Shown here in pieces: positions 3,013 through 16,200 of a stretch of DNA of 64,000 bases. The notes beneath the pieces were generated by a model. It had not been told where the DNA came from. It did no database searches and saw nothing but the letters and a program-made list of their open reading frames with translations. Within the stretch, counting starts at the first letter, position 1; each line of letters starts with the position of its first letter. Where the stretch lies: contig DAIQNV010000002.1 in the NCBI GenBank assembly GCA_036788215.1, forward strand, positions 37,074-101,073, given 5' to 3'. The DNA is from Phycisphaerales bacterium. GTDB lineage: Bacteria > Planctomycetota > Phycisphaerae > Phycisphaerales > UBA1924. Made by a program: the position numbers and the translations under genes.

Positions 3013-6000
3013 ATGACACCAGCGACCGTGGGCAACCACCCCCACACCACGAAGACGACGACGCGGACCGCCGCGGCGCCGAAGGACGGCCCCGTGGACG
3101 GCCCCGCCGACGGACGGTTCTCGGTCTTCGAGAACGCCCCCGCCTACATCATCGACGGCGCGGAGAACATGCCTCCGTTCCTGTCGACCGTGGTCACGGA
3201 CGCCGACCTTTGGCTGTACGTCTCCTCGTCGGGTGCCCTGACCGCGGGGCGGGGCTCGGCGGATCGCAGCCTCTTCCACTACGAGACCGACGACCGGCTT
3301 CATCGCATGGGGGGCCTGACCGGGCCGGTCACGCGGATCACGGTCGATGGCGAGCGGGCCTGGCTCCCGCTCGACCCGCGCGGGGCTGCCGAGGGCTGCA
3401 CGCGCCGCATCATGCGGGGCGACCAGGCCTCGTTCGTCGCCTTCGAGGAGCACCACCCCGCGCTCGGGCTCACCTTTCGGCAGGGGTGGTGGCTGAGCGA
3501 AACGCACGGCATCGTCCGTCGCTGCTGGCTCGAGCGTGACGCGGGCCAGCCGCCGGTCGAGATCGAGCTGGTCGATGGCCTGATGAACCTCATCCCCGCA
3601 GGCATCCCGGTCGAGCTGCAGCGCTTCGCCAGCACGCTGGCCGACGCCTACACGCGGTGCGAGCTGGACGATGACTCGGGGCTGGCGATCTACGCCCTCG
3701 AATCCCGCATCACGGACCGCGCCGAGCCCGAGGAGCCCCTGACCGCCAATGCGGTCTGGCACGCCGGGCTGGAGGGGGCGGAGGTGTTCCTCGACGAGGA
3801 GGCCTGGTGGCGGTGCCTCCGCGGCGCGGAAACGCCCGAGCCCGTGAGCCTGACGACGGGCCGGCGCGGCGCGTACCTCTGCAAGGCCCGCGTCCGCGTC
3901 GGTGCTGACGAGCCGGCCCACTGGGCGATCGTGGGCGATGTCGACCTCGACCACGCCCGCATCGAGACGCTGCGGGCCCGGCTCCGGTCGGCACCGACGA
4001 CGCCGGACGAACTCGCGGGCGCGATCCACGCGGACACGGGTCGCCTGACGCGTCTGCTCGACAACGCCGACGCCTCGCAGTGCAGCGCCGACCCGGCGCA
4101 GATCGCGTACCACCGCTGCAACACGCTCTTCAACGCGATGCGGGGCGGGGTGCCGGTCGACGGGTACCGCGTCGACCCGGTCGACTTCGCCCGCTTCCTG
4201 GAGCGACGCAACACGATCGCCTCGGAGTCGGCCCGCGGGATGCTCGCCTCCCTGGGTGCCGAGCCCACGATCCAGGACCTGCAGGAAGCGGCCCGGGAGA
4301 CCGGCGACCTCGACCTGATGCGCCTGTGCGCCGAGTACATGCCCCTGACCTTCGGCCGGCGCCACGGGGACCCGAGCCGCCCGTGGAACGCGTTCAGCGT
4401 CCGCGTCCGCAACGACAAGGGCGAGCGCGTCTGCGGCTACGAGGGCAACTGGCGGGACATCTTCCAGAACTGGGAGGGGCTCTGCCTCGCGTACCCCGAC
4501 CTGCTCCCGGGCGTGGTCTCGATCTTCCTGAACGCGTCGACCGCGGACGGGTTCAACCCCTATCGCCTGACGCACAACGGGATCGACTGGGAGTGCCCTG
4601 ATCCCCATAACCCCTGGGCCAACATCGGCTACTGGGGCGATCATCAGATCGTCTACCTGCTGCGCCTGCTCGAGCGCCTGCACGCCTGGCGCCCCGGCAT
4701 GCTCGAGACGGCGCTCGACCGGCCCGCCTTCGCGTACGCGAATGTGCCCTACCGTATCCGCTCCTTCGACGAGATCAAGGCCGACCCGAAGGGCACGATC
4801 GCGTTTGACACGGAACTCGACCGCGAGATCAAGCTGCGCGAGCGGGACTATGGCTCCGACGCCCGTCTGCTGGCGGGAACGGACGGGCGGGTGATCCACG
4901 TCACCCTGCTCGAGAAGCTGCTGGTGCCGGCGCTCGCGAAGATCAGCAACATCGTCCCCGGGGGCGGCGTCTGGATGAACACCCAGCGCCCCGAGTGGAA
5001 CGACGCGAACAACGCGCTCGCCGGCAACGGCGTCTCGATGGTCACGCTCATGCACCTCCGGCGGTACACGGAGTTCTGCATCAATCTGCTGAGTGAGCAC
5101 GACCACGGATCGATCACGCTGACCTCCGAGGTCGCGTCCTGGTGCGACCGCGTGCTCAAGGTGCTCGTCGAGTACCTCGAGCACACGCAGAGCGGCTGGG
5201 TGATGGACGACGCGGAGCGTTGGACCGTGACGACCGCCCTCGGACGGGCCTTCGAGCGGTACCGCGCCTCTCTCTACGACGCCGGCATCGGCCCGCGCCG
5301 CGAGTACCCCACCCGCGTGGTCACCGACCTCTTCCGGCTCGCCCGCCACTACTGCGACCACGCCATCCAGGCGGCGGAACGCGAGGACGGGCTCTTCCAC
5401 AGCTATGGCGTCCTGGAGCGTCCCGACGGGAAGCGGGCGTCCGTCCGCTGGCAGCCCGAGATGCTCGAGGGACAGGTCGCGGCGCTCAGCTCCGGCCGGC
5501 TGACGGGCGAGCGGGCAGCCGATCTCGTCGACTCCATGCTCGACAGCGGGCTCTTCCGCCCGGATCTGCAGACCTTCCTGCTGGCGCCGGTGCGGGAGCG
5601 TGCGTCGTTCCTCGATCGCAACATCGTCCCTGCGGAGCACGCGCCGGAGGATTCGCTGCTCGCCAGACTCGCGGACACCCGGGCCGAATCGATCGCCCGG
5701 CGCGACAGCGCGGGGCGAGTGCGCTTCGGCCCGGCGATGAACACCGAGCGGGACCTCCGCGCCGCCCTCGAGCGGCTCGCCCGGCGCGAGGGGTGGCACG
5801 CGCCCGTGACCTCAGGACGCGACTCCGTCCTGGCAGCGTACGAGGCGACCTTTCACCACTCGCTCAGCATGGGCCGGGCCGAGCAGATGCACAAGTACGA
5901 GGGCATCGGCTGCGTCTACTGGCACATGGTGTCCAAGCTGCTCGTCGCGGTGCAGGAGAGCGCATTCGACGCGCTCGACCAGGCCGAGCCCCAGATCACG

Positions 6001-6531
6001 ATCGATCGGCTCCGTTGCGCGTACCACCGGGTCCGCGACGGCATCGGCTTCAACCACGCGCCGCGCGACTTCGGGGGCTTCCCCTTCGAGCCCTACTCGC
6101 ACTCCCCCCTGCACATCGGTGCCCAGCAGCCCGGCATGACCGGGCAGGCCAAGGAAGGGCTGATCGCCCGCATGGGCGAGCTCGGCGTCCGCGTCCGCGC
6201 GGGCGAGATCCGGCTCGACCCGGTGCTCCTGCGCCGGGACGAGCTGGTCGACCAGCCGGCGGTCTGGCGGTTCATCGACGCGACCGGGGACCAGCGGGCC
6301 ATCGAGCTCCTGCCGGGCGAGATCGGCTTCACCGTCTGCGGGACCCCGTTCGTCCTCATGGTGAACGGCACGCCGGGCGTCGAGATCCGCCTCCGCGACG
6401 GCGGGGAGCACACCTCGGACGGGCTCACGATCCCGAGCGAGTACACCACCGAGATCGCAAGGCGTTCGGGCCGGGTCGAGGTCGTCCGGGCCATCGTGCC
6501 CGAAGCGATGCTGTACAACCCCGAGGCCTGA
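3013..6531 (+). CDS. Large (1172 aa) conserved hypothetical protein; possibly (alpha/alpha)6-barrel glycosidase/phosphorylase-like
   Basis: Long ORF with high GC3 and no signal peptide. Motifs include GYEGNWRDIFQNWEG, NIGYWGDHQIVYLLRLLE and WMNTQRPEWNDANNALAGNG. I cannot place these in a named family, and the function call is a weak guess from the LacI/GH neighbourhood. Confidence 0.7.
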   Translation: MTPATVGNHPHTTKTTTRTAAAPKDGPVDGPADGRFSVFENAPAYIIDGAENMPPFLSTVVTDADLWLYVSSSGALTAGRGSADRSLFHYETDDRLHRMGGLTGPVTRITVDGERAWLPLDPRGAAEGCTRRIMRGDQASFVAFEEHHPALGLTFRQGWWLSETHGIVRRCWLERDAGQPPVEIELVDGLMNLIPAGIPVELQRFASTLADAYTRCELDDDSGLAIYALESRITDRAEPEEPLTANAVWHAGLEGAEVFLDEEAWWRCLRGAETPEPVSLTTGRRGAYLCKARVRVGADEPAHWAIVGDVDLDHARIETLRARLRSAPTTPDELAGAIHADTGRLTRLLDNADASQCSADPAQIAYHRCNTLFNAMRGGVPVDGYRVDPVDFARFLERRNTIASESARGMLASLGAEPTIQDLQEAARETGDLDLMRLCAEYMPLTFGRRHGDPSRPWNAFSVRVRNDKGERVCGYEGNWRDIFQNWEGLCLAYPDLLPGVVSIFLNASTADGFNPYRLTHNGIDWECPDPHNPWANIGYWGDHQIVYLLRLLERLHAWRPGMLETALDRPAFAYANVPYRIRSFDEIKADPKGTIAFDTELDREIKLRERDYGSDARLLAGTDGRVIHVTLLEKLLVPALAKISNIVPGGGVWMNTQRPEWNDANNALAGNGVSMVTLMHLRRYTEFCINLLSEHDHGSITLTSEVASWCDRVLKVLVEYLEHTQSGWVMDDAERWTVTTALGRAFERYRASLYDAGIGPRREYPTRVVTDLFRLARHYCDHAIQAAEREDGLFHSYGVLERPDGKRASVRWQPEMLEGQVAALSSGRLTGERAADLVDSMLDSGLFRPDLQTFLLAPVRERASFLDRNIVPAEHAPEDSLLARLADTRAESIARRDSAGRVRFGPAMNTERDLRAALERLARREGWHAPVTSGRDSVLAAYEATFHHSLSMGRAEQMHKYEGIGCVYWHMVSKLLVAVQESAFDALDQAEPQITIDRLRCAYHRVRDGIGFNHAPRDFGGFPFEPYSHSPLHIGAQQPGMTGQAKEGLIARMGELGVRVRAGEIRLDPVLLRRDELVDQPAVWRFIDATGDQRAIELLPGEIGFTVCGTPFVLMVNGTPGVEIRLRDGGEHTSDGLTIPSEYTTEIARRSGRVEVVRAIVPEAMLYNPEA

Positions 6532-6682
6532 TCGTCGTCCCCCGACGACGGGGGAGGGGTGATCGCCCCGCCCCGCTCCGGTCCCGTCCCCTTCCACACG
6601 GACCGGTCCACCGAGGGCGCCATCAAGCGCCGGAGTGATGGCGTCGATACCCGACCGAGAACCCCCTCGGTCGGAGACCCCG

Positions 6683-8041
6683 ATGACCACCATCCCGCTC
6701 CCGCAGGCCTTCCCCGCCGCGTCCCCGATGCCCAAGCAGAAGGAGACGACGGTCGGGAACTACTTCGTCGCCAACTACCCGCCTTTCGGCCATTGGCGCA
6801 CCGACCGCATCAACGCCTTCCACGAGGCGCTCGACCACGACCCCTCGCCCGGGAACGAGCTGGGCGTGTACGCGCACATCCCGTTCTGCCGCAAGCGGTG
6901 CCACTTCTGCTATTTCCGGGTGTACACGGACAAGAACTCGTCGGAGATCCGGCGGTACCTCGACGCGATGGTCACCGAGCTCAAGGCGGTCGCAGGGCGG
7001 AGGTTCGTGGGCGGGCGCACGCCCAGCTTCGTCTACTTCGGGGGCGGCACGCCGAGCTATCTCTCGCCCGCGCAGTTCGACGATCTGACGCGGGAGATGA
7101 AGGCGGTCCTCCCGTGGGACGACGCCCGCGAGATCACGCTCGAAGCCGAGCCCGGCACGCTGAATCAGAAGAAGCTCGAGGCGATCCGCCGCATGGGCGT
7201 CACCCGCCTGAGCCTGGGCATCGAGCACTTCGATGACCGCCTGCTGGAACTGAACGGGCGGGCCCACCGGAGCAAGCAGACCCTCGCGGCCTACGAGGCG
7301 GCCAGGGGCGTGGGGTTCCCCGAGATCAACGTCGACCTCATCGCCGGCATGCTCGACGAGACCGACGAGGCGTGGCAGGACACGGTCCGCCGGACCATCG
7401 ATCTGGAGCCCGACACCGTCACCATCTACCAGATGGAGGTGCCCTACAACACGACGATCTACCAGCGCATGAAGGAGGAGGGCTCGCTCATCGCCCCGGT
7501 CGCCGACTGGGAGACCAAGCGTCGCTGGGTCAACGAGGCCTTCGCCGAGTTCGTCTCTGCGGGCTATACCGTGACGAGCGCCACCACCGTCGTGAAGGAC
7601 CCCGCGCGGAACCGCTTTGTGTATCGCAACGGGCTCTTCAACGGGTCGGACATCCTGTCCGTCGGCGTCTCCGCCTTCGGGCACATCAACGGCGTCAACT
7701 ACCAGAACGAGCACGATTTCAACCCCTACATCGACGCGGTGCACCAGCGCGGGGGCCTGCCCACCCATCGGGCGTACCCGCTCACGTTCGAGGAACGCTA
7801 CATCCGTGAGTTCGCGCTCCAGCTCAAGGCCGGGCGGGTGCTGGCCCTCCCGTTCGCGCAGAAGTTCGGCGAGAATCCGCGCCACCGCTTCGCCTCGGCG
7901 CTGCAGATCATCGATGGCATGGGCATGCTCGCCCGCGCGGATGACGAGGTCATCGAGGTCACCCGCGAGGGGCTGCTGCAGATCGACCGCCTGCTCTTCG
8001 AGTTCTTCCGCCCCGAGCACCGGCACGGGCGCTTCGCATGA
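6683..8041 (+). CDS. HemN-like radical SAM protein (coproporphyrinogen-III-oxidase-like / class C radical SAM family)
   Basis: HIPFCRKRCHFCYF CxxxCxxC cluster motif, YFGGGTPSYL motif, and HemN-like N-terminal NYPPFGHW. ATG at 6683 is preceded by GGAG; alternative starts at 6635 and 6638. The stop overlaps the next gene as ATGA. Confidence 0.85.
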   Translation: MTTIPLPQAFPAASPMPKQKETTVGNYFVANYPPFGHWRTDRINAFHEALDHDPSPGNELGVYAHIPFCRKRCHFCYFRVYTDKNSSEIRRYLDAMVTELKAVAGRRFVGGRTPSFVYFGGGTPSYLSPAQFDDLTREMKAVLPWDDAREITLEAEPGTLNQKKLEAIRRMGVTRLSLGIEHFDDRLLELNGRAHRSKQTLAAYEAARGVGFPEINVDLIAGMLDETDEAWQDTVRRTIDLEPDTVTIYQMEVPYNTTIYQRMKEEGSLIAPVADWETKRRWVNEAFAEFVSAGYTVTSATTVVKDPARNRFVYRNGLFNGSDILSVGVSAFGHINGVNYQNEHDFNPYIDAVHQRGGLPTHRAYPLTFEERYIREFALQLKAGRVLALPFAQKFGENPRHRFASALQIIDGMGMLARADDEVIEVTREGLLQIDRLLFEFFRPEHRHGRFA

Positions 8042-9597
8042 GCCCCGCCTCGCTCGAAGCCCGGGCCACGACCGGCCTCGCGACGCTCCCCACGGGCGCC
8101 GACTACATCGCCTCGCTCGACGACGACCGCGCCGTCTATCTCGACGGCGCCCGCGTGCGGGACATCGCCCATCACCCGGCGTTCCGCAACAGCGTCCGCT
8201 CCATCGCCCGCCTCTACGACGCCCTGCACGAGCCCGCGGGCGACGGGCTCACCGTGCCCTGCGACGCCGATCCGAGCCAACGCACCCACGCCTTCTTTCG
8301 CGCCGCACGCTGCGCCGACGACCTTCGGGACGCCCAGCGGGCGATCGCCGCCTGGGCCCGCCTCACCTATGGCTGGATGGGCCGCACGCCCGATTACAAG
8401 GCCTCCCTGACGACCACCCTCGGCGCCAACGCCGACTTCTTCGGCCCGTACGCGGACAACGCCCGTCGCTGGTACAGCCACGCCCAGGGGCACCTCCCCT
8501 TCCTGGGCCACGCGGTCGTCAACCCTCCGATCGACCGCCACCTGCCCGTCGAAGAGACCGGCGATACCGCGGTCCGCGTGGTCCGCGAGACCGACGCGGG
8601 GATCATCGTCTCGGGCGCGAAGGTCGTTGCCACCTCCGCCGCCATCGCCAATCACTGCTTCATCGGCCAGACACCCAACACCGCCTCCGACGACCCCGCC
8701 ATGGCGGTCTCGTTCATCGCCAGGCTCGACACGCCGGGCATCGCACTGATCTGCCGCAACTCCTACGAACTGGCCTCCCGCTCCGCCTTCGAGTCACCCC
8801 TCGCCTCCCGGTTCGACGAGAACGACGCGATCATCACCTTCAACGAGGCCCTCATCCCGTGGGAGGATGTCCTCATCCACCGCGATCCCGAGCGCGTCGC
8901 CCAGTTCTTCCCGCGCTCCGGCTTCGTCAACCAGTTCCTCTTCCATGGGTGTACCCGCCTGGCGGTCAAGCTCGACTTCATCGCGGGCCTGCTCGCCAAG
9001 GCGCTCCGTATCACCGGGGGCCACACCGCCCGGGGCAAGCGAGCCCTGCTGGGCGAGGTCATCGCCCACAGGCACGCCTTCTGGTCGCTCTCGAACGCCA
9101 TGGCCTCGAGCCCCGATCCCTGGGCCAACGGGCACGTGCTGCCGAATCACGACGCCGCGCTCGCCTACTGCGTCCTTGCGCCCGACGCCTACCCCCGCGT
9201 CCGCGCCATCGTGCAGCAGATCGTCGCCTCGGGACTCATCTACCTGCCCGCGTCCGCCGCGGATCTCGACCACCCGGAGACCGCCCCGCTGCTCGCCCGC
9301 TACGCCCGGGGCTCCGAGAACACCGACCACCGCGAACGCACGAAGATCATGAAACTCCTCTGGGACGCGGTCGGCACCGAGTTCGCAGGCCGCCACGAGC
9401 TCTACGAGCGGAACTACGCCGGGGGCTGGGAGTGCACCCGCCTCATGGTCGAGGCCTCCGCGAGGGGGCGCCGCAAACTCGACGCCATGGAAGCACTCGT
9501 CGACCGGTGCCTCGCGGACTACGACGAACAGGGCTGGACCACCGACACCTGGATTTCTCCGACATCGCCCGAAAGCATCCCCATCGACGCTGCCTGA
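8038..9597 (+). CDS. HpaB-family flavin-dependent monooxygenase (4-hydroxyphenylacetate 3-monooxygenase oxygenase component-like)
   Basis: 519 aa. YGWMGRTPDYKAS, VVRETDAGIIVSGAKVVATSAA and the C-terminal HpaB-type helical domain. ATGA overlap with the radical SAM gene and TGATG overlap with the next gene. Confidence 0.85.
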   Translation: MSPASLEARATTGLATLPTGADYIASLDDDRAVYLDGARVRDIAHHPAFRNSVRSIARLYDALHEPAGDGLTVPCDADPSQRTHAFFRAARCADDLRDAQRAIAAWARLTYGWMGRTPDYKASLTTTLGANADFFGPYADNARRWYSHAQGHLPFLGHAVVNPPIDRHLPVEETGDTAVRVVRETDAGIIVSGAKVVATSAAIANHCFIGQTPNTASDDPAMAVSFIARLDTPGIALICRNSYELASRSAFESPLASRFDENDAIITFNEALIPWEDVLIHRDPERVAQFFPRSGFVNQFLFHGCTRLAVKLDFIAGLLAKALRITGGHTARGKRALLGEVIAHRHAFWSLSNAMASSPDPWANGHVLPNHDAALAYCVLAPDAYPRVRAIVQQIVASGLIYLPASAADLDHPETAPLLARYARGSENTDHRERTKIMKLLWDAVGTEFAGRHELYERNYAGGWECTRLMVEASARGRRKLDAMEALVDRCLADYDEQGWTTDTWISPTSPESIPIDAA

Positions 9598-10232
9598 TGA
9601 ACCCCCACCACGCCCGCCTGCGCGACCGCCTCTACGACACCTTCCGGGGCCGCCCCACACCCCTGCTCTGCGCCGACGAGTACACCATCCCCGGCGCGTC
9701 CCTCTGGTCCGGGGCGCGTCTGTGGGTCAACGCGCTGCGGGTCCACGATCTCGGGCCGGGCGACCGCGTCCTGCTCGCGCTGCCCCGCACGCCCGCCTCG
9801 GTGATGGCGACGCTCGCCTGCTGGTGGGAGGGGCTCACCGTCTGCCCCGCCGACGCCTTCGACCCGGCCCAACTCGCCACGCTCGACGCTGCCCTCGCCC
9901 TCGCCGACGCCGACCACCCGAGCGTCCTCCGGCGGGCCCGCGACGAGCACCCCGCCCCGGGCCCGGTCACGCTCCGTCTTGCCCGCACGCCCCGCACGCC
10001 CGAGGTCGCTCTCCTCCTCCCCGACAGCGGGCCCGTTCCCTTCCAGACCATCGCCGATCTGGGCGCCCGCGCCGTCACGAGCATCGAGCCCTTCGAACTC
10101 CGCGAACCCTGGGACACCCACGACGGCTTGCTCGCGGACGATCGCGGGCTCTGGCCGATCCTCTTTGCGGGCGCCATCGTGCGGGTTGCCTACGCCGGTC
10201 GTCCGATCACGCCACTCGCCCGCGCCGCCTGA
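9597..10232 (+). CDS. Short (211 aa) protein resembling only the N-terminal part of an adenylate-forming (acyl/aryl-CoA ligase) enzyme, without a P-loop
   Basis: LGPGDRVLLALPRTPASVMATLACWWEGLTVCPAD resembles the substrate-side N-terminal segment of 4CL/acyl-CoA ligases. PEVALLLPDSGPVPF sits where the SGTTGxPKG motif is expected. The ORF stops after 211 codons and is start/stop-coupled to the HpaB-like gene. Confidence 0.5.
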   Translation: MNPHHARLRDRLYDTFRGRPTPLLCADEYTIPGASLWSGARLWVNALRVHDLGPGDRVLLALPRTPASVMATLACWWEGLTVCPADAFDPAQLATLDAALALADADHPSVLRRARDEHPAPGPVTLRLARTPRTPEVALLLPDSGPVPFQTIADLGARAVTSIEPFELREPWDTHDGLLADDRGLWPILFAGAIVRVAYAGRPITPLARAA

Positions 10233-10463
10233 GGGGGTATCCACCCGGCTCCGCTCCGGGGATCGTCTGCGCCAGACGATGAACTCCCTCGCCCCGAGCG
10301 TCCTCCCGCGACGGTGTCCTCCACTGCATCTCAAGCACCACCGGGGCTTCTCCGATTTCTCATCTGCACGCAAGGCCCGACGCCCGCCGACTCACGCGGG
10401 GCCGCGGCCGGGAGTCGGGTGCTGCACCCGGTGTTGTCCGTCCTCTCGAAAGGAAGCCAGATC

Positions 10464-10796
10464 ATGAACACCGAGACCGTCGAGAGCCTGGAGATGCAGC
10501 TCCGCTCTCTCTACGAGGAGCGCGAGTTCCTCGCCCAGAAGTATGGAGTCTCGTCCGCCGACGAAGTCGTCTCGATGGTCTCGAACCTCGAGGCCCAGCT
10601 CCACGACTTCTACCACAAGTACGGGAGCTTCGACAGCGACGACAATTCCGGCATCATCCTGGGCCGGCTCAAGGAGCTCAGCTCCGCGCTCGACCCCATG
10701 TACTCGCAGAAGAGTGTCACATTCACGTTTGAGAACAACCGCCCCGTCCTCCGCGCCGAGTGGACCGAGCAGCTGAACCAAGGAGACGCCCAGTGA
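10464..10796 (+). CDS. Hypothetical 110-aa acidic protein, translationally coupled to pyp
   Basis: ATG at 10464 is preceded by AGGAAG. Translation MNTETVESLEMQLRSLYEEREFLAQKYG... has a predicted helical N-terminus and good GC3 codon bias. Its stop at 10794-10796 overlaps the GTG at 10793 and lies 6 nt before the ATG at 10802 of pyp. Confidence 0.7.
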   Translation: MNTETVESLEMQLRSLYEEREFLAQKYGVSSADEVVSMVSNLEAQLHDFYHKYGSFDSDDNSGIILGRLKELSSALDPMYSQKSVTFTFENNRPVLRAEWTEQLNQGDAQ

Positions 10797-10801
10797 ACAG
10801 C

Positions 10802-11188
10802 ATGATGAGTGCCCCCGCCGGGACCTTTGTCCCGAACGAGCTCTTCCCGATGCTCGGGAACCTTTCCCGCAACGACGCCGATTCCTGCGACTTCGGGATC
10901 ATCCAGCTCGACGACTCGGGCAAGGTGATCATGGTCAACCGCTACCAGTCCGAACTCGGCGGCGTCCCCGTCTCCCAGTTCGAGAACCGCAACTGGTTCA
11001 CCCAGATCGCACCCTGCACCAACAACGGGCTGGTCTTCGGCATGTTCAAGAAGGGCGTCGCCGCGGGCAACATGAACACCGTGTTCCCCTACACCTTCAC
11101 CTTCAAGATGAAGCCCACCAACGTCAAGATCCACTTCTACCGCGACCAGAAGTCGGGCCGGAACTTCGCGTTCGTCGCCCGCGCCTGA
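10802..11188 (+). CDS. pyp: Photoactive yellow protein (PYP) homologue, stand-alone PAS photoreceptor
   Basis: 128 aa. Aligns without gaps to Halorhodospira halophila PYP from FG(A/I)IQLD through NFF..APC to the C-terminus: FGIIQLDDSGK..., NWFTQIAPC, GVAAGNMNTVFPYTFTFKMKPTNVKIHF, FAFVARA. Chromophore Cys is conserved at codon 72 (11015-11017). An alternative GTG start at 10793 sits 7 nt after AGGAG. Confidence 0.9.
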   Translation: MMSAPAGTFVPNELFPMLGNLSRNDADSCDFGIIQLDDSGKVIMVNRYQSELGGVPVSQFENRNWFTQIAPCTNNGLVFGMFKKGVAAGNMNTVFPYTFTFKMKPTNVKIHFYRDQKSGRNFAFVARA

Positions 11189-11228
11189 TCCACCGGGCCC
11201 ACCGCCCGACCAAGCGATCGCGCACGCT

Positions 11229-11267
11229 CGCCCCGCCCGGGCCCACGCCCAGGCGGGGCGTCTTTCT
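11229..11267 (+). terminator. Rho-independent terminator after pyp
   Basis: CGCCCCGCC...GGCGGGGCG stem (extendable, 6-nt loop) followed by TCTTTCT, located 40 nt after the pyp stop. Confidence 0.7.
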
Positions 11268-11324
11268 GCGCGCACCGGCACCGCCCCCCCGGTACCATCG
11301 GGCCTCCCCGAAGGAGAGTGCCGC

Positions 11325-13247
11325 GTGGTCCACAGTCGAGCCTGCGCCCTGCTCTGCGCGTGCGTGCTGGGCCCGCTCACCGCCGCGGCCGACCCGACCG
11401 CCACCCCGCCGGGACCGGAGACCGCCCGGGCCATCACGCCCGACCCCGCCCGCGATGGCTTCCGGTACCCGGTCTCCCGCGTCCGATTCAGCCTGCCCTA
11501 CGAGCACCAGGACGCGCCCGATCTCGGGTCGATCAGCGCGACCGTCGTCCCCCTGACGCCCACCCCCGAGGGCTGGATCGCCCCGCCCACGCCCGGCGCC
11601 CCCACCGTCGAGGTCGCTCTCGACCGTCCCCTCGACGCGTTCGAAGCCGCCCCCCCGGTCCTCTTCGGGAGCGCGATCGCTGCCATCACCCGACGGGTCC
11701 AGTCCGCCTTCGCGACGGACCCGGGACTCATCGGGCACCTCGTCATCCCCGACCCCGACCAGATCGATCCCGCCACCAGCGAGGATCTCCGCCCCGCGGC
11801 CGCGACCGATCTCACCGTCTCCATCTACCTCGCCACCGTCGCCGATACGCGCACGATCGGCTTCGGTCGCCGCCTGCCCGAGGACGCCCAGCCCATCAAC
11901 CACCCCGCCCACGCCCGCATCCTCCGCAACGCCCCGCTCGCGACCGGGGACCTGCTCGCCCGCCCGCCCATCGATCGCTTCGTCGCCCGCCTGAACCGCC
12001 ACCCGGGCCGGCGGGTCGAGACCGCGGTCGCGCCGACGGGCGAGCCCGGGCGGGTCTCGCTCGACTTCCTCGTGACCGAAGCCAAGCCCTGGACCGTCTA
12101 CGCCCAGGTCGCCAACACCGGCACCCGCTCGACCGACGAGATGCGCATGCTCTTCGGCGCCCGCCACACCCAGCTCACCGGGCGGGACGACGTCCTCACC
12201 GTCAACTACATCACCGCGGAGTTCGACGCCACGAACGCGGTCGCCGCCAGCTATGTCCGCCCGCTCGACGACCTGGGCCGGATCACGCTCACGATCAACG
12301 GCGCTTGGAATGAGTACACCGCGAGCGACATCGGGCTGGGCCTGGCTGCCCTGGAGGGCGAGGGCTACGACGCGGGCGCGGAACTGGCCATCGAGCTCGC
12401 CGAGATCGGCCGGGGCTTCCTCCACGCCTTCGCGGGCCTGCAGTACCGCCGGATCAGCATCGACAACCTCCTCGCGGGCGTCGAGGGCGAGACCGACCTC
12501 CTGCTCGCCAGCGCCGGCGTGCGATTCGCCAGGGCCGGCCTCACGAGCGATACCACACTCTCCGGTTCCATCGAGGCGAATCTCCCCGACATCGCCGGCA
12601 CCGACGAGTCCGACCTCGTCTTCCTTGGGCGATCCGACGCGGACACCTCCTTCGCGGTCCTCCGGTTCGAAGCGGCCCACAGCCTTTTCCTTGAGCCCCT
12701 TTTCGACCCTGATGGCTATGCGGGCCGGCGCGGGCCCGACGCCATGACCCTCGCCCACCGCCTCACCCTCTCCGCCCGAGGGCAGTACACGCCGGAGCGC
12801 CGCCTCGTCGCCAACCTGCAGGCCATCGCGGGCGGGTTCTTCACCGTCCGGGGCTACGAGGAGGCGGTCGCTTCGGGCGACTCGGCGCTCATCGCGTCGA
12901 TCGAGTACCGGTATAGCCTCGCCGCCGCCCTGCCCCCGGCGGAGCGGGCGGGCTCCCTGGCGGGGCGACCCTTCCGCACCGCCCGGCAGGAGCCCTACGG
13001 CACCGCGGACTGGGACATCGGCCTCCGCGTCTTCGCCGATCTCGCGGTCGTGGACAACAACGACCGGGCCCCGGGCGAGTCCGACGAGACGCTGATGGGC
13101 ATCGGCGTGGGTGTTGACGCCCGGCTCTGGACCAACCTGACGGCCCGGGCCGACCTGGGCGTGGCACTCTCGGACGCTCGATCGCAGACGAACCCGGCGA
13201 ATCAGGGCGATACCAGGCTGCATTTCGCCGTCATCGTGTCATACTGA
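11325..13247 (+). CDS. ShlB/FhaC/HecB-family two-partner-secretion outer-membrane transporter (TpsB)
   Basis: GTG start 6 nt after AAGGAGAG. Signal peptide, POTRA-like N-terminal region, and C-terminal beta-barrel with FFTVRGYEEAVASGDSALIASIEYRY. Ends in an aromatic residue (VIVSY). Confidence 0.85.
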   Translation: MVHSRACALLCACVLGPLTAAADPTATPPGPETARAITPDPARDGFRYPVSRVRFSLPYEHQDAPDLGSISATVVPLTPTPEGWIAPPTPGAPTVEVALDRPLDAFEAAPPVLFGSAIAAITRRVQSAFATDPGLIGHLVIPDPDQIDPATSEDLRPAAATDLTVSIYLATVADTRTIGFGRRLPEDAQPINHPAHARILRNAPLATGDLLARPPIDRFVARLNRHPGRRVETAVAPTGEPGRVSLDFLVTEAKPWTVYAQVANTGTRSTDEMRMLFGARHTQLTGRDDVLTVNYITAEFDATNAVAASYVRPLDDLGRITLTINGAWNEYTASDIGLGLAALEGEGYDAGAELAIELAEIGRGFLHAFAGLQYRRISIDNLLAGVEGETDLLLASAGVRFARAGLTSDTTLSGSIEANLPDIAGTDESDLVFLGRSDADTSFAVLRFEAAHSLFLEPLFDPDGYAGRRGPDAMTLAHRLTLSARGQYTPERRLVANLQAIAGGFFTVRGYEEAVASGDSALIASIEYRYSLAAALPPAERAGSLAGRPFRTARQEPYGTADWDIGLRVFADLAVVDNNDRAPGESDETLMGIGVGVDARLWTNLTARADLGVALSDARSQTNPANQGDTRLHFAVIVSY

Positions 13248-13261
13248 GGGCGAACCAAACC

Positions 13262-16200
13262 ATGAAGACACCGCCCGCAAACCTGATGCTCGCCGGAACG
13301 GCACTCCTGCTGTCGCTCCCCACCCTCCCCGCGGTCGCCGGCCCCGATGGCAGCACCGTCGCCCGGGGCTCCGCCTCCATCGCCCGGGACGGCGCCGTCA
13401 CCACGATCACCGCGAGCGACGGGGCGATCCTGAACCACCAGTCGTTCCACATCGCCCCGCACGAGGCGGTGCGGTTCCTGCAGCCCCACGCGGGCGCCCG
13501 CGTCCTCAACCGCGTCGTCGGACCGGACGCCTCGCTGATCGAGGGCAGCCTCTTCGCCAACGGGCGGGTCTACCTCGTCAACCCCAACGGCATCTTCATG
13601 GGCCCGGACGCGATCGTCCGTACCTCGGCCTTCATCGCGGCGGGCGCCCACATGGCCGATGCCGACTTCCTTGCCGGCCTCGACCGCTTCACCGACGCAC
13701 GGGGCGCCGTGGTCAACCAGGGCCTGATCGAGGCTGGAGAGGTCATGCTCTTCGGGCGGACCGTCGCCAACCTCGGCACGATCAACGCCCCCAACGGGAC
13801 CGTCGCGCTGCTCGCGGGGGAGAACCTCTACCTGAAGCCGGGCGATGGCGGGCCGCTGGTGCAGCTCGACGCGTCCGGGCCGCCCGAACGCCCCGCGGTG
13901 CACGCCGGGCCGACACTCGCCGCGGGCGACATCTACTCCATGGCGGTCTGGCAGGGCGGGCGCACGACCGCCCGGGCGGTGCGGGCGCAGAGCGCCGATG
14001 TCCGCCCTGTGGTCAACACGGGCGACATCCGCGCTCAGAGCGACGACGGGCGGGGCGGGGAGATCCTGCTCGCGGGCCCCGCTGTCCGCGTGTGGGATGG
14101 CACGCTCGACGCCTCGGGGCCCATGGGCGGGGGCACGGTGCAGATCGGGGCCCGCCCCAACGGCGCCGCCCCGCTGAGCGCCACGGTCCACACCGAGGCG
14201 GGCGTCACCGTCCGGGCCGACGCGACCGGGCGGGGCGACGCCGGCTCGATCGAGCTGTGGTCCAGCCACCTGACCCTCGCCGCAGGGGAGCTTTCCGCCC
14301 GTGGTGGCCCCCTCGGGGGCGACGGGGGATTCATCGAAACCTCCAGCATGGGCGGGCTCCTTGCGGACGCGGGGGTCGATATCGGGGCGAGCAACGGTCG
14401 GGCGGGGCTCTACCTGATCGACCCGGTGGACGTGCTGATCACAACACGTGCGCTCGCGCTCAGCAAGCTTGGCCAGTTGACGAACCCCACCGGCGAGCCC
14501 GTCCTGAGCCTCGTTCTGGTCAACCGGGTGACGCAGGCACTCCTGACGGGCAATGTCGAGATCAATACCGAGTTCTCCCGCGGCGCGGGCAACGGGACGA
14601 TCACGGTCGATGTCGAGGACCCGGACCGTTTCGGCGCAGAAGCGGTGAGCTACGCCCTGCCCGGCCCGCGCACGCTGACACTCCGCGCGCACCGCGATAT
14701 CCGCATCCTGAGCCCGCTCGCACCCGACGGAACGAGTGCGCCCCTGAACCTCGTGCTCGCGGCGAACAGCACCTTCCCGAACGACCCCGACCCCGACCCG
14801 GCGACGGGAGACGTCCGCCTCTCCGCGCCCATCCGCCTCTCCGGGGGCGGCCTGACCTCGTCGGGCGTCAACTTCAACGGGACGCTTGGCCTGATCACCG
14901 CCGGCTGGGTCGACCTGCAGCACTCGGGAACCGTCACGCTGGGATCGGATGTCACGCTCACCGGCATCGGACCCGGGGGCAACGCGCTCCGCGCGACCGG
15001 CACGAGCTTCACACTGAACGCCAATGTGCCGCTGACGACCTCCGCCGGAGGCGGGATCAGCCTCTCGTTCTCCGACACGGTCACCATCGGGAACGGGGGG
15101 CTCCTTGACCTGGGCAACGCCTTCAGCATCACGGGGGCCCAGTCCGTCTCCCTCGGGCGTGACGTGCGCACGACGGGCGACCCGATCACCATCGAGGGTG
15201 CGGTGACGCTGACCGGCGGGGACCGGCTCTTGCGGAGCAACTTCAACACCCTCGGCGCACCCATAGCGCTCGGAGCGATCGAGCGGGCCGCGACGGACCC
15301 GGGCGGGCTCACCGTGCGGTCGGGCAACGGCGCCATCGTTCTGGGCGACGCCGGCCAGGCGAACCCGCTCGCGTTCATGACGGTCGAAGGCGCGTCCGTC
15401 TCCGTCGGCAGCGCCAGGACCACCGGTCCCCAGACCTACACCGTGCAGAACGCCCAACTGCGCGGAGGCACACTCGAGACCGCGAGCGCAAACCTCGCGA
15501 TCTTCGGCGCGTCGCGCCTGCAGGGCAGCACGACGCTGCGCACCTCGGGCGGGCCGGGCGGGGGCGCGGTGACCCTCGGGTCTGTCGACTCCGACGGCGC
15601 GGGAAGCCGCGCCTTCACGATCGACGCGGGCTCCGCCCCCGTTGGACTGACCGGCGACATCGGCGGGCTCGCGGCCCCGCAGTCGCTGACGATCAACGCG
15701 GGACCGATCTCCGCAGCGTCGCTCGTGACCCTGGGCCCGCAGAGCATCACCGCGACGGAGACCACGCTGCGAGGCGGGATCGTCGCCTCGCTCGTGGGGG
15801 GCTCGATCACCTTCATCGGGCAGGTCCGACTGAATAACGGTGTGACCGCCTTCACCGCGGGCAACGCCGGCGACGACCTGAACTTCGTCGGCCCCATCGT
15901 CGCCCCGGGCGTCGGGCTCGCGCTCAACGCCGGACAGGCGGGCACCGTGACCTTCCTGAGCGGCGCCGGGCTCGTGGGCGGGGAGCTGGGGCGCCTCGAT
16001 GTCTCGCTCGCCGGGCTAACGCAGCTCGCGGGCGATATCCGCACGCTCGGGGGCGTCCGCATCGGCTCCCCGCTCCGGATCGTGGGCGGCTCATCCATCG
16101 TGGACGCCCGGGGCGGCACCACCGTCATCGCGGGCGACGTGACCGGCGCCGCGGGCCTCGCCCCGACGCTGACTTTCGCCTGGGAGGGCACCGCCGGCGT

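What the first reader, a model, noticed from the sequence alone, without database searches (positions are those of the whole stretch)
10934..11017. All four canonical chromophore-pocket residues (Tyr42, Glu46, Thr50, Arg52) are replaced in register
The distance from FGxIQLD to APC is identical to H. halophila PYP, and Gly37, Asn43, Gly51, Gln56, Asn61 and Phe63 all match, so the alignment is ungapped. It places Val at Tyr42 (10934-10936), Gln at Glu46 (10946-10948), Gly at Thr50 and Val at Arg52. Cys69, Tyr94, Phe96 and Met100 are retained. A Tyr and a Glu occur instead at +3 and +2 (positions 45 and 48 in H. halophila numbering).

Tyr42 and Glu46 form the short hydrogen bonds to the phenolate, and the E46Q mutant is known to red-shift the protein and alter its photocycle. 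This protein therefore probably has a rewired hydrogen-bond network, different spectral tuning, or a different chromophore.
Basis: partly seen in the sequence, partly recalled or inferred. Interest (0 to 1): 0.75.

Follow-up and report, generated by a model that had tools for sequence, protein, structure and literature searches.

The report
Yellow-protein photoreceptor with rebuilt chromophore pocket
This planctomycete gene encodes a photoactive-yellow-protein relative that keeps the chromophore-anchoring cysteine but lacks both residues (Tyr42, Glu46) thought indispensable for holding the chromophore, and it belongs to an undescribed, conserved group in which three other pocket positions changed with them.

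Summary
The ORF at 10793/10802-11188 aligns without gaps to H. halophila PYP and has Val42, Gln46, Gly50, Val52 and Cys69. The interpretation needs revising. Gly/Ala50, Val/Ile52, Tyr45 and Glu/Asp48 occur throughout the wider subfamily, including members that keep Tyr42/Glu46, so they are background rather than replacements.

The group-specific changes are Y42V and E46Q together with Ala/Val57 to Phe/Tyr, Phe62 to Trp/Tyr, usually Asn61 to His, and Tyr98 to Phe. All 56 unique V/A/C42 sequences, all from Phycisphaerales-type Planctomycetota, carry Gln46, Phe/Tyr57 and Trp/Tyr62. The gene is under purifying selection. Many relatives sit beside intact TAL and pCL genes, so these are most likely working hydroxycinnamoyl photoreceptors with a rebuilt phenolate site.

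Published surveys state that the double substitution never occurs together with Cys69. One member of this group sits undiscussed in a supplementary alignment.

A HemN-like radical SAM, HpaB-type phenol 3-hydroxylase and truncated pCL-like module lies directly upstream here. It is embedded in PYP operons elsewhere, between pCL and TAL in several loci, which hints at a modified chromophore such as caffeoyl. That part is inference.

New variant of a known kind; interest about 0.62.

The parts
10793..11188 (+). PYP-family gene (131 aa from GTG 10793, 128 aa from ATG 10802). PAS/PYP fold with Cys69 retained.
   Evidence: dN/dS 0.16 against the 95%-identical orthologue in L007.
10934..10936 (+). Val at H. 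halophila position 42 (Tyr42 replaced).
   Evidence: V/A/C in 56/56 group members against Y/F in 162/162 others.
10946..10948 (+). Gln at position 46 (Glu46 replaced).
   Evidence: Q in 56/56 group members. E46Q alone also arose in several other lineages.
10958..10966 (+). Gly50, Gly51, Val52. Family-wide background, not group-specific.
   Evidence: Consensus Ala50/Leu52 in PMC12826048.
10979..10981 (+). Phe at position 57. A perfect discriminator of the group (Phe/Tyr against Ala/Val/Cys).
10994..10996 (+). Trp at position 62 (Phe62 replaced). Candidate new hydrogen-bond donor at the phenol end of the pocket.
   Evidence: Residue 62 contacts the phenolic ring in the PYP-derived protein FAST (PMC8132994).
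11015..11017 (+). Cys69, the thioester attachment site, within the conserved Ala-Pro-Cys-Thr motif.
   Evidence: Cys in 218/218.
11102..11104 (+). Phe at position 98 (Tyr98 replaced). Shared with the nearest Y42/Q46 relatives.
10464..10796 (+). Conserved 110-aa ORF whose stop codon overlaps the PYP start. No known domain. Candidate PYP partner.
   Evidence: dN/dS 0.12.
9597..10232 (+). 211-aa protein homologous to the N-terminal ~220 residues of pCL. P-loop degenerate (PDSG-PVPFQ where pCLs have TSG-T[ST]G) and truncated after the PWHHAFGL-like motif. Its start overlaps the HpaB stop (TGATG).
   Evidence: Conserved in L007, L010, L167 and L170. dN/dS 0.27 with no stops or gaps.
8038..9597 (+). 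HpaB-type two-component flavin phenol 3-hydroxylase (oxygenase component).
   Evidence: Pfam HpaB_N and HpaB. 546 bits to E. coli HpaB over its full length, with the GWMGRTPDY and H(A)xVNPPIDRH motifs that hold the phenol-binding Arg, Tyr and His conserved. TIGR02310 600 bits, below the 885 cutoff.
6683..8041 (+). HemN-like radical SAM enzyme (CRKRCHFC at residues 85-92 and GGGTP at 136, counted from the GTG at 6635). Its stop overlaps the HpaB start.
   Evidence: Database protein P0113 starts at the ATG at 6683.
11230..11267 (+). GC-rich hairpin (GCCCCGCC, 14-nt loop, GGCGGGGC) followed by GTCTTTCT. Possible terminator ending the block.
   Evidence: Read by eye. Not flagged by the scanner because the loop exceeds 8 nt.

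Best explanation
[quoted passage not shown] A hydroxycinnamoyl chromophore is still attached by thioester to Cys69, but the phenolate end of the pocket has been rebuilt. Tyr42 and Glu46, the two classical hydrogen-bond donors, are replaced by Val and Gln. In compensation, position 57 became Phe/Tyr, probably filling the space left by the Tyr42 ring. Position 62, which touches the phenolic ring, became Trp/Tyr and could supply an indole NH or phenol OH. Position 61 usually became His, though not in this protein, and Tyr98 became Phe. Gln46 can donate a hydrogen bond but not a proton, so the photocycle should lack the Glu46-to-chromophore proton transfer. The dark state should be either red-shifted (a weakly hydrogen-bonded phenolate) or, if the phenol stays protonated, UV-A/violet absorbing. 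Shown here: the register, the substitutions, the covariation, purifying selection, the fold, and the gene neighbourhoods. Inferred: chromophore binding, the roles of residues 57 and 62, and the spectral consequences. A secondary and less certain inference concerns the radical SAM, HpaB and pCL-like module immediately upstream. It may modify the chromophore, most simply p-coumarate to caffeate by HpaB, so that the chromophore's own 3-OH could take over part of Tyr42's role.
For: Family membership and register. Cys69 and the Ala67-Pro68-Cys69 motif, Tyr94 and Phe96 are invariant in all 56 unique V/Q sequences. Purifying selection against the L007 orthologue: PYP dN/dS 0.16, small ORF 0.12, rSAM 0.11, HpaB 0.15. 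Chromophore-synthesis genes: 13 of 29 V/Q loci have a full-length pCL and 14 of 29 a TAL within 10 kb. These TALs carry the MIO triad ASG and the same His-Leu selectivity pair as TALs beside canonical PYPs. Covariation: all 56 unique V/A/C42 sequences have Gln46, Phe/Tyr57 and Trp/Tyr62, whereas 159 of 163 Tyr/Phe42 sequences have Phe62 and none has Phe/Tyr57. Support from separate lineages: among the top 150 representatives at 50% identity that keep Cys69, 8 of 9 with Trp/Tyr62 lack the Tyr42+Glu46 pair against 27 of 125 with a non-polar residue at 62 (odds ratio 29, p = 8e-5). One of them, P0309, combines Leu42, Phe57 and Trp62. Residue 62 contacts the 4-hydroxy-3-methoxyphenyl ring of the ligand in FAST (PMC8132994). 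Module link: rSAM-HpaB occurs beside PYP in at least six different arrangements. They are upstream co-directional (window, L007, L010, L001/2); divergent (L008, L087, L094, L170); between pCL and TAL on the opposite strand (L017, with the pair following pCL in the shorter contigs L018, L096 and L097); between pCL and TAL co-directional (L128); and after pCL (L114-L119). After removing redundancy, the pair lies within 10 kb in 12 of 20 loci with a non-aromatic residue 42 against 4 of 52 with Tyr/Phe42 (odds ratio 18, p = 9e-6, not phylogenetically corrected). L170 is an independent Tyr42-to-Met case with the module. The window's HpaB conserves the phenol-binding motifs of E. coli HpaB, and E. 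coli HpaBC converts p-coumarate to caffeate (PMC3379962).
Against: No biochemical data exist for any member. This window holds no TAL, no full-length pCL and no second PYP in 64 kb, and the only pCL-like gene has a dead P-loop. The source of an activated chromophore for this particular protein is therefore unknown. In Salinibacter ruber PYP the Y42F/E46Q double mutant keeps the chromophore protonated, and authors argued that at least one of the two residues is required (PMC9664959). Against the modified-chromophore part: canonical Tyr42/Glu46 PYPs in L128 and L114-119 also carry the module. Eight of 20 non-redundant loci with a non-aromatic residue 42 show no module within 10 kb. The rSAM belongs to a very large family (more than 8000 hits) with 61-64% identical members standing alone in Verrucomicrobia and elsewhere. 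No flavin reductase (HpaC) was identified. A PDB entry exists for PYP carrying a 3-bromo-p-coumaric acid chromophore (6UMZ, listed), so a 3-substituent does not obviously require loss of Tyr42. Strict monophyly of the V/Q group disappears when the ten diagnostic columns are removed (0/40 bootstraps; 53 of 56 remain in one 57-tip clade).
Confidence: 0.7

Rival explanations
1. It is an ordinary p-coumaroyl PYP with altered tuning. The rSAM, HpaB and pCL-like genes are neighbours by descent in Phycisphaerae and have nothing to do with the chromophore.
For: Many V/Q loci have only PYP-pCL-TAL (often followed by gas-vesicle genes) with no module within 10 kb. Canonical PYPs can also sit next to the module. 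Close rSAM homologues occur alone in other phyla. All module-bearing loci seem to come from Phycisphaerae-like genomes, so the arrangements are not fully independent.
Against: The pair is inserted between pCL and TAL, in both orientations, and recurs in at least six arrangements while staying next to PYP. Both sampled rSAM homologues that are coupled to HpaB (L167, L170) lie beside or near PYP-type genes, and the three without HpaB do not. The pair is enriched next to PYPs that lack an aromatic residue at 42.
Confidence: 0.3
2. It is a neofunctionalised PAS sensor that no longer works as a photoreceptor. For example, it could bind a phenolic ligand without photochemistry, or sense redox through the cysteine, and regulate or respond to the adjacent HpaB pathway.
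For: Both photocycle-critical residues are gone. This window lacks TAL and a working pCL. Xing et al. proposed neofunctionalisation for other PYP homologues with pocket substitutions (PMC9664959). The score falls below the TIGR02373 equivalog cutoff (88.8 against 143).
Against: Cys69 and the whole Ala-Pro-Cys-Thr loop, Tyr94 and Phe96 are invariant. About half of the group's loci keep pCL and TAL directly downstream. The same conserved partner ORF precedes both canonical and V/Q PYPs. Several V/Q loci keep the gas-vesicle neighbourhood seen beside their Y42/Q46 relatives.
Confidence: 0.1
3. The apparent substitutions are an alignment artefact or reflect a decaying pseudogene.
For: None beyond the unusual residues themselves.
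Against: Sequence and structure alignments are ungapped. The ORF is intact, dN/dS is 0.16, and 56 distinct sequences share the same residues.
Confidence: 0.01

Closest known systems
Halorhodospira halophila photoactive yellow protein (P16113; PDB 2PHY, 1NWZ)
   Same: Same fold (TM 0.85-0.89) and same length class. Ungapped alignment at about 35% identity. Cys69 in Ala-Pro-Cys-Thr, Tyr94, Phe96, Met100, Gly29, Gly37, Asn43 and Phe63 are conserved.
   Different: Tyr42 to Val, Glu46 to Gln, Val57 to Phe, Phe62 to Trp, Tyr98 to Phe. Thr50 to Gly and Arg52 to Val are shared with most non-halophila PYPs. No pCL or TAL next to the gene in this window.
Engineered E46Q, Y42F and Y42F/E46Q PYP mutants, and natural Gln46 PYPs (Ppd clade)
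   Same: Gln46 as in E46Q (PDB 1OT6 and 1OTE were among the best sequence and structure matches). Natural Gln46 occurs in 2.6% of 984 surveyed PYPs (PMC12826048).
   Different: In the laboratory double mutant nothing compensates and the chromophore stays protonated (PMC9664959). Here the double loss always comes with Phe/Tyr57 and Trp/Tyr62. Val at 42 removes the whole aromatic ring, not just the hydroxyl as Phe does.
Nearest natural relatives: Phycisphaerales PYPs with Tyr42/Gln46/Phe62/Phe98 (e.g. P0023, loci L004 and L013)
   Same: 64-72% identity. Same upstream small ORF. Already carry Gln46 and Phe98.
   Different: They keep Tyr42, Ala57 and Phe62, are followed by pCL, TAL and gas-vesicle genes, and none of 12 such loci has the rSAM-HpaB module.
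E. coli HpaB (4-hydroxyphenylacetate 3-monooxygenase; PDB 6B1B, 6QYH) and HpaBC-based caffeate synthesis
   Same: Full-length alignment at 546 bits. The motifs containing the phenol-binding Arg, Tyr and His are conserved. HpaBC hydroxylates p-coumarate to caffeate (PMC3379962).
   Different: Below the NCBIfam equivalog cutoff (600 against 885 bits). No HpaC reductase or 4-HPA catabolic genes alongside. It is translationally coupled to a HemN-like radical SAM enzyme and a dead pCL fragment.
HemN / class C radical SAM enzymes (E. coli HemN 1OLT; NocN 9P2U; ChuW/HutW)
   Same: CxxxCxxC and GGGTP motifs. Radical_SAM Pfam domain in the window protein, with HemN_C recorded for homologues. Other evidence.
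   Different: Scores far below every equivalog cutoff (best 181 against 400), so its chemistry cannot be assigned. It could be decarboxylase-type or C-methyltransferase-type.

Membership tests
Photoactive yellow protein family (PAS_PYP sensu Xing et al. 2022; TIGR02373) | PAS fold with N-terminal cap, superposable on solved PYP | tested here: met
   AF2 pLDDT 90.9. Foldseek top hits are all PYP, TM 0.85-0.89, rmsd 2.1 A.
Photoactive yellow protein family (PAS_PYP sensu Xing et al. 2022; TIGR02373) | Cys69 for the thioester link to the chromophore (the criterion Xing et al. used to define family membership) | tested here: met
   TGC at 11015-11017 within Ala-Pro-Cys-Thr. PMC9664959.
Photoactive yellow protein family (PAS_PYP sensu Xing et al. 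2022; TIGR02373) | Tyr42 and Glu46 hydrogen-bonded to the phenolate (at least one of the two retained) | tested here: not met
   Val42 and Gln46 in an ungapped register. Gln46 can still donate a hydrogen bond but not a proton.
Photoactive yellow protein family (PAS_PYP sensu Xing et al. 2022; TIGR02373) | Score above the TIGR02373 equivalog cutoff | tested here: not met
   88.8 bits against a cutoff of 143.05. Xing et al. note that this model finds only about 20% of PYP homologues.
Photoactive yellow protein family (PAS_PYP sensu Xing et al. 2022; TIGR02373) | Genetic linkage to TAL and pCL | tested here: inconclusive
   Absent from this 64-kb window. Present in 13-14 of 29 V/Q-group loci. Linkage is not universal even for canonical PYPs (pCL in 32% and TAL in 5% of operons; PMC12826048).
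Photoactive yellow protein family (PAS_PYP sensu Xing et al. 2022; TIGR02373) | Covalent p-coumaroyl chromophore, visible absorbance and a reversible photocycle | not testable with these tools
   Needs expression, spectroscopy and mass spectrometry.
HpaB (4-hydroxyphenylacetate 3-monooxygenase, oxygenase component; TIGR02310) | HpaB_N and HpaB domains with the phenol-binding Arg, Tyr and His | tested here: met
   The native E. coli numbering R113/Y117/H155 is from my own recollection.
HpaB (4-hydroxyphenylacetate 3-monooxygenase, oxygenase component; TIGR02310) | Equivalog score and a partner reductase HpaC or the hpa catabolic context | tested here: not met
   600.5 bits against a cutoff of 885.2. 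No HpaC or hpa genes were seen among the annotated neighbours, though a reductase was not searched for exhaustively.
4-coumarate-CoA ligase of PYP operons (pCL) | Full-length adenylate-forming enzyme with an intact P-loop | tested here: not met
   The ORF at 9597-10232 covers only the first ~220 residues. The pCL motif TSG-T[ST]G is replaced by PDSG-PVPFQ. Pfam AMP-binding scores 26.4 bits, below the 29.9 cutoff.
HemN (oxygen-independent coproporphyrinogen III oxidase) and class C radical SAM methyltransferases | Radical SAM CxxxCxxC cluster motif with GGGTP, and a HemN_C domain | tested here: met
   Motifs and the Radical_SAM Pfam domain are in the window protein. HemN_C is on record for homologues such as those in L001 and in the list, but was not returned in the window protein's own Pfam scan.
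HemN (oxygen-independent coproporphyrinogen III oxidase) and class C radical SAM methyltransferases | Equivalog-level match to HemN, HemW, HemZ or ChuW/HutW | tested here: not met
   Best score 180.7 against a cutoff of 400 (ChuW/HutW) and 169.7 against 325 (HemN).

The most novel reading that the evidence does not exclude
A lineage of planctomycete yellow proteins uses a chromophore other than p-coumarate. The chromophore would be a catechol-type or further modified hydroxycinnamate made by an operon-embedded HpaB hydroxylase and a HemN-like radical SAM enzyme. The pocket would have co-evolved with it: Tyr42 is removed, Phe57 and Trp/Tyr62 are added, and the chromophore's own 3-hydroxyl takes over part of the hydrogen bonding. 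This would be the first natural PYP with a different chromophore and the first radical SAM enzyme in photoreceptor chromophore synthesis.
Probability: 0.3. Interest if true: 0.82.

Novelty: new variant of a known kind. Interest (0 to 1): 0.62.

Why it matters
PYP is the textbook model for photoreceptor dynamics and for short, possibly low-barrier hydrogen bonds. Tyr42 and Glu46 are its most studied residues. Glu46 is the proton donor that drives the signalling state. Two recent family-wide surveys concluded that these residues are essentially invariant and that both are never lost together when Cys69 is present. A conserved natural group that lacks both, and always carries the same three compensating changes, is a ready-made evolutionary experiment. 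It shows how a phenolate chromophore can be stabilised and how a photocycle can run without the classical proton donor, and it offers new tuning positions (57, 61, 62) for PYP-derived tools such as FAST. If the adjacent HpaB and radical SAM module really modifies the chromophore, it would extend the chemistry of biological photoreceptor chromophores. The tightly coupled small ORF is also a concrete candidate for the still unidentified PYP signalling partner.

Tried and rejected
1. Tyr45 and Glu48 as shifted replacements. Rejected because they are family-wide.
2. Gly50 and Val52 as special features. Rejected for the same reason (PMC12826048).
3. The short AMP-binding ORF as a decaying pCL pseudogene. 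My first reading, since revised. It is an intact, conserved ORF in at least five lineages with dN/dS 0.27, although its P-loop is dead.
4. rSAM-HpaB found exclusively with V/Q PYPs. My reading after the first 87 loci, rejected when metagenome loci L114-L119 and L128 showed the pair beside canonical PYPs.
5. Robust monophyly of the V/Q group. The first NJ tree gave an exclusive 56-tip clade, but this depends on the diagnostic columns. Without them strict monophyly has 0/40 bootstrap support.
6. Structure of the small ORF. The AlphaFold2 model had pLDDT 58.5, too low for a fold search, so none was run.
7. Promoter and terminator scan and Rfam scan of 6000-11600. Nothing above chance and no RNA family.
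8. Residue-level geometry of the pocket. Model coordinates are not exposed to the scripting tool, so distances among residues 42, 57, 62 and the chromophore could not be measured.
9. Literature searches for PYP with Planctomycetes and for PYP with caffeic acid found no description of this group or of a natural caffeoyl PYP.
10. Pfam scan of ten further large ORFs from 22 to 64 kb found no photoreceptor or chromophore genes.
Full report
**What is at the coordinates**

The ORF on the + strand ending at 11188 starts either at GTG 10793, which overlaps the TGA of the upstream ORF, or at ATG 10802. It encodes a 128/131-aa protein identical to a database protein from a 103-kb contig (P0001). phmmer against all PDB chains returns only photoactive yellow proteins. 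It aligns query 17-127 to PYP 14-124 in one ungapped stretch (E about 1e-23). The codons named in the finding read Val (10934-10936), Gln (10946-10948), Gly (10958-10960), Val (10964-10966) and Cys (11015-11017).

A MAFFT alignment of 112 homologues with the H. halophila sequence has no gap between positions 28 and 70 in any full-length sequence. An AlphaFold2 model (pLDDT 90.9) matches solved PYP structures over 121 columns at TM 0.85-0.89, rmsd 2.1 A and 35-36% identity.

**What is and is not special about the pocket**

I tabulated pocket positions over 219 unique sequences: the 112 homologues plus PYPs translated from 167 fetched loci.

- Position 45 is Tyr in all 56 V/Q sequences and aromatic (Tyr, Trp or Phe) in 143 of the 162 other sequences.
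- Position 48 is Glu/Asp nearly everywhere.
- Position 50 is Ala/Gly, with Thr in only 4 of 162 non-V/Q sequences.
- Position 52 is Val/Ile/Leu, and Arg is not among the four commonest residues.

All four are just as common in proteins that keep Tyr42 and Glu46. The published 984-sequence survey likewise gives Ala50 and Leu52 as family consensus (PMC12826048). So Tyr45/Glu48 are not displaced substitutes, and Gly50/Val52 are background.

An unbiased scan for columns separating the V/A/C42 sequences from the rest (Jensen-Shannon divergence) gives two perfect discriminators. Position 42 is V/A/C against Y/F, and position 57 is F/Y against A/V/C. Next come 62 (W/Y against F), 61 (H against N/S/V), 46, 33, 39, 98, 41 and 122.

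All 56 unique V/A/C42 sequences have Gln46, Phe/Tyr57 and Trp/Tyr62. Of the 163 Tyr/Phe42 sequences, 159 have Phe62. The window protein reads V42, Q46, F57, N61, W62, F98. The nearest relatives (Y42/Q46/A57/V61/F62/F98, for example P0023) already carry Gln46 and Phe98. This suggests the order Y98F, then E46Q, then Y42V together with A57F and F62W/Y.

**Independent support for a role of residue 62**

A profile search of 1.84 billion 50%-identity representatives found 1334 PYP-like proteins. Among the top 150 domains that keep Cys69, 8 of the 9 with Trp/Tyr62 lack the Tyr42+Glu46 pair. Of the 125 with a non-polar residue at 62, 27 lack it (odds ratio 29, p = 8e-5). One representative, P0309, independently combines Leu42, Phe57 and Trp62.

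In the NMR structure of FAST, a PYP derivative, residue 62 stacks on and directly contacts the 4-hydroxy-3-methoxyphenyl ring whose oxygen bonds Glu46 and Tyr42 (PMC8132994). I infer that Trp/Tyr62 supplies a replacement hydrogen-bond donor and that Phe/Tyr57 back-fills the Tyr42 cavity. I could not measure distances because model coordinates are not exposed.

**Is the protein functional, and is the group a clade?**

Against the 95%-identical orthologue in a Phycisphaeraceae MAG (L007), dN/dS is 0.16 for the PYP. For the neighbouring genes it is 0.11-0.27. Cys69, Ala67, Pro68, Tyr94 and Phe96 are invariant in the group.

Of the 29 V/Q loci, 13 have a full-length pCL and 14 a TAL within 10 kb, usually directly downstream. 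Those TALs have the ASG triad and the same His-Leu selectivity pair as TALs next to canonical PYPs. That this pair marks tyrosine specificity is from my recollection of the RsTAL His89 work.

An NJ tree places all 56 V/Q sequences in one exclusive clade with W62 and Y62 subclades. That result depends on the diagnostic sites. With the ten diagnostic columns removed, 53 of 56 still fall in one 57-tip clade, but strict monophyly gets 0/40 bootstraps. A single origin is plausible but not proven. Every V/Q locus whose record title names a taxon below domain level is labelled Phycisphaerales, Phycisphaeraceae or Planctomycetota, apart from one labelled Planctomycetaceae.

**Gene neighbourhood**

In the window the genes run co-directionally with overlapping stop and start codons:

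| Gene | Coordinates |
|---|---|
| HemN-like radical SAM | 6683-8041 |
| HpaB | 8038-9597 |
| 211-aa pCL-like protein | 9597-10232 |
| (232-nt gap) | 10233-10463 |
| 110-aa ORF | 10464-10796 |
| PYP | 10793-11188 |

The flanking genes look unrelated. Upstream are a GH149 glucan phosphorylase and a LacI regulator, and downstream is a two-partner secretion pair.

HpaB is a close full-length relative of E. coli HpaB (546 bits) with the phenol-binding motifs conserved. E. coli HpaBC is known to turn p-coumarate into caffeate (PMC3379962). The radical SAM protein has the CxxxCxxC and GGGTP motifs but matches no characterised subfamily at equivalog level. The pCL-like protein aligns to the first ~220 residues of true pCLs, has lost the P-loop and stops after the PWHHAFGL-like motif. 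It is conserved in L007, L010, L167 and L170. The window contains no TAL, no full-length pCL, no gas-vesicle genes and no second PYP.

**The module and PYP elsewhere**

The rSAM-HpaB pair occurs next to PYP genes in several arrangements:

- Upstream and co-directional: window, L007, L010, L001/2.
- Divergent: L008, L087, L094 and L170.
- Between pCL and TAL on the opposite strand: L017. The pair also follows pCL on the opposite strand in L018, L096 and L097, but those contigs end before any TAL.
- Between pCL and TAL on the same strand: L128.
- After pCL: L114-L119.

It was not seen in any of 12 Y42/Q46 loci and was seen in only 6 of 126 Y/F42-E46 loci. After removing redundancy it is within 10 kb in 12 of 20 loci with a non-aromatic residue 42, against 4 of 52 with Tyr/Phe42 (odds ratio 18, p = 9e-6, uncorrected for phylogeny). 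L170 adds an independent Tyr42-to-Met protein, with Glu46 kept, next to the module.

Against a strict link, canonical PYPs in L128 and L114-119 have the module. The rSAM also belongs to a huge family with 61-64% identical members standing alone in other phyla. I therefore treat "the module modifies the chromophore" as a reasonable hypothesis (about 0.3-0.4). I treat "loss of Tyr42 is an adaptation to that chromophore" as more speculative.

**Comparison with the literature**

Xing et al. [quoted passage not shown] They inferred that at least one of Tyr42 and Glu46 is required, citing a protonated chromophore in the S. ruber Y42F/E46Q mutant. Dohmen et al. (PMC12826048) report only Tyr (90.8%) or Phe (8.9%) at position 42 and Glu (97.1%) or Gln (2.6%) at position 46. 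Their operon analysis lists no HpaB or radical SAM gene.

Their supplementary alignment does contain one member of this group, MBY0261368.1 from a Phycisphaerales bacterium with V42/Q46/F57/H61/Y62. The text does not discuss it. The representative search also shows a few other Cys69 lineages with both positions changed: P0277 (Cys/Gly), P0296 (Ala/Ala), P0298 (Ile/Ala) and P0388 (Trp/Ala). The protein scores 88.8 bits against the TIGR02373 cutoff of 143.

**Verdict**

What is there is a conserved, undescribed variant of PYP in Phycisphaerales with a concerted five- to six-residue rebuild of the phenolate site. In this genome it is physically coupled to a phenol hydroxylase, radical SAM and pseudo-ligase module. 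It is a new variant of a known kind. Everything about spectra, chromophore identity and signalling remains to be measured.

Noticed in passing
window 10464-10796 (+): A 110-aa ORF with no known domain is translationally coupled to the PYP gene. Its family has only 35 clusters in 5.8 billion proteins. None carries a functional name; the few NCBI titles say Planctomycetota. It is very conserved (25 invariant columns). A relative sits immediately upstream of PYP in 29/29 V/Q, 11/12 Y/Q and 77/126 Y/E loci. It is a candidate for the unidentified PYP signalling partner. The AF2 model has low confidence (three helices plus a hairpin).
   Followed up: partly
L004 9183-9602; L006 9262-9675; L003 9168-9575: A second conserved ORF of about 135-139 aa and no known domain precedes the small ORF in most PYP loci of this subfamily. 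It is absent from the window, L007, L001, L010, L015 and L024.
   Followed up: no
window 9597-10232 (+); also L167 11112-11852 and L170 7845-8549 (-): A conserved truncated pCL-like protein (211-246 aa) with a degenerate P-loop always follows HpaB or accompanies the module. Its dN/dS of 0.27 suggests it is kept for a non-catalytic role.
   Followed up: partly
L004 13623-20414; L003 12226-20432; also L011, L013, L016, L021, L022, L094: Gas-vesicle gene clusters (GvpA, GvpL/F, GvpK, GvpG, AAA ATPases) lie directly downstream of PYP-pCL-TAL in many Phycisphaerales loci (9 of 12 Y42/Q46 loci). This suggests light control of buoyancy. No such cluster is in this window.
   Followed up: partly
L008 5571-7392; L087 10001-11759; L094 5519-7379: Two tandem small-ORF/PYP modules. 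The first PYP is V42/Q46/W62 and the second is a divergent Tyr42/Gln46 paralogue (34-48% identity). In L087 and L094 the second has Ala-Leu/Ile-Cys-Cys in place of Ala-Pro-Cys-Thr. It is followed by pCL and then TAL (L087's flank shows pCL but no TAL).
   Followed up: partly
L170 8649-9071 (-): A PYP with Met42, Glu46, Val57, Phe62 and Cys69, transcribed divergently from an rSAM-HpaB pair. This is an independent loss of Tyr42 next to the same module.
   Followed up: partly
proteins P0277, P0296, P0298, P0388, P0309, P0275, P0276: Other PYP-like lineages keep Cys69 but have unusual 42/46 pairs: Cys/Gly, Ala/Ala, Ile/Ala, Trp/Ala, Leu/Glu with Phe57+Trp62, Tyr/Leu and Tyr/Asn with Tyr62. Pocket diversity in metagenomes exceeds what published surveys report.
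   Followed up: no
protein P0268: A 1174-aa protein with four tandem PYP-type domains, the best hit of the profile search at 384 bits.
   Followed up: no
L168 8001-10084; L171 10001-12091: Close homologues (61-63% identity) of the HemN-like radical SAM protein in other contigs stand next to a VIT1 iron-transporter gene, with no HpaB or PYP. The family has more than 8000 members and no assigned function.
   Followed up: partly
window 11325-17428 (+) and 3013-6531 (+): A ShlB/FhaC-type transporter and a 1388-aa TPS-domain exoprotein (two-partner secretion) lie directly downstream of the PYP. A GH149 beta-1,3-glucan phosphorylase with a LacI regulator lies upstream. A DUF1559/N-methyl protein at 785-1846 fits a planctomycete origin.
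   Followed up: no
window 11230-11267 (+): A GC-rich hairpin with an 8-bp stem and a T-rich tail lies 42 nt after the PYP stop. It is a possible terminator, missed by the scanner because of its 14-nt loop.
   Followed up: no
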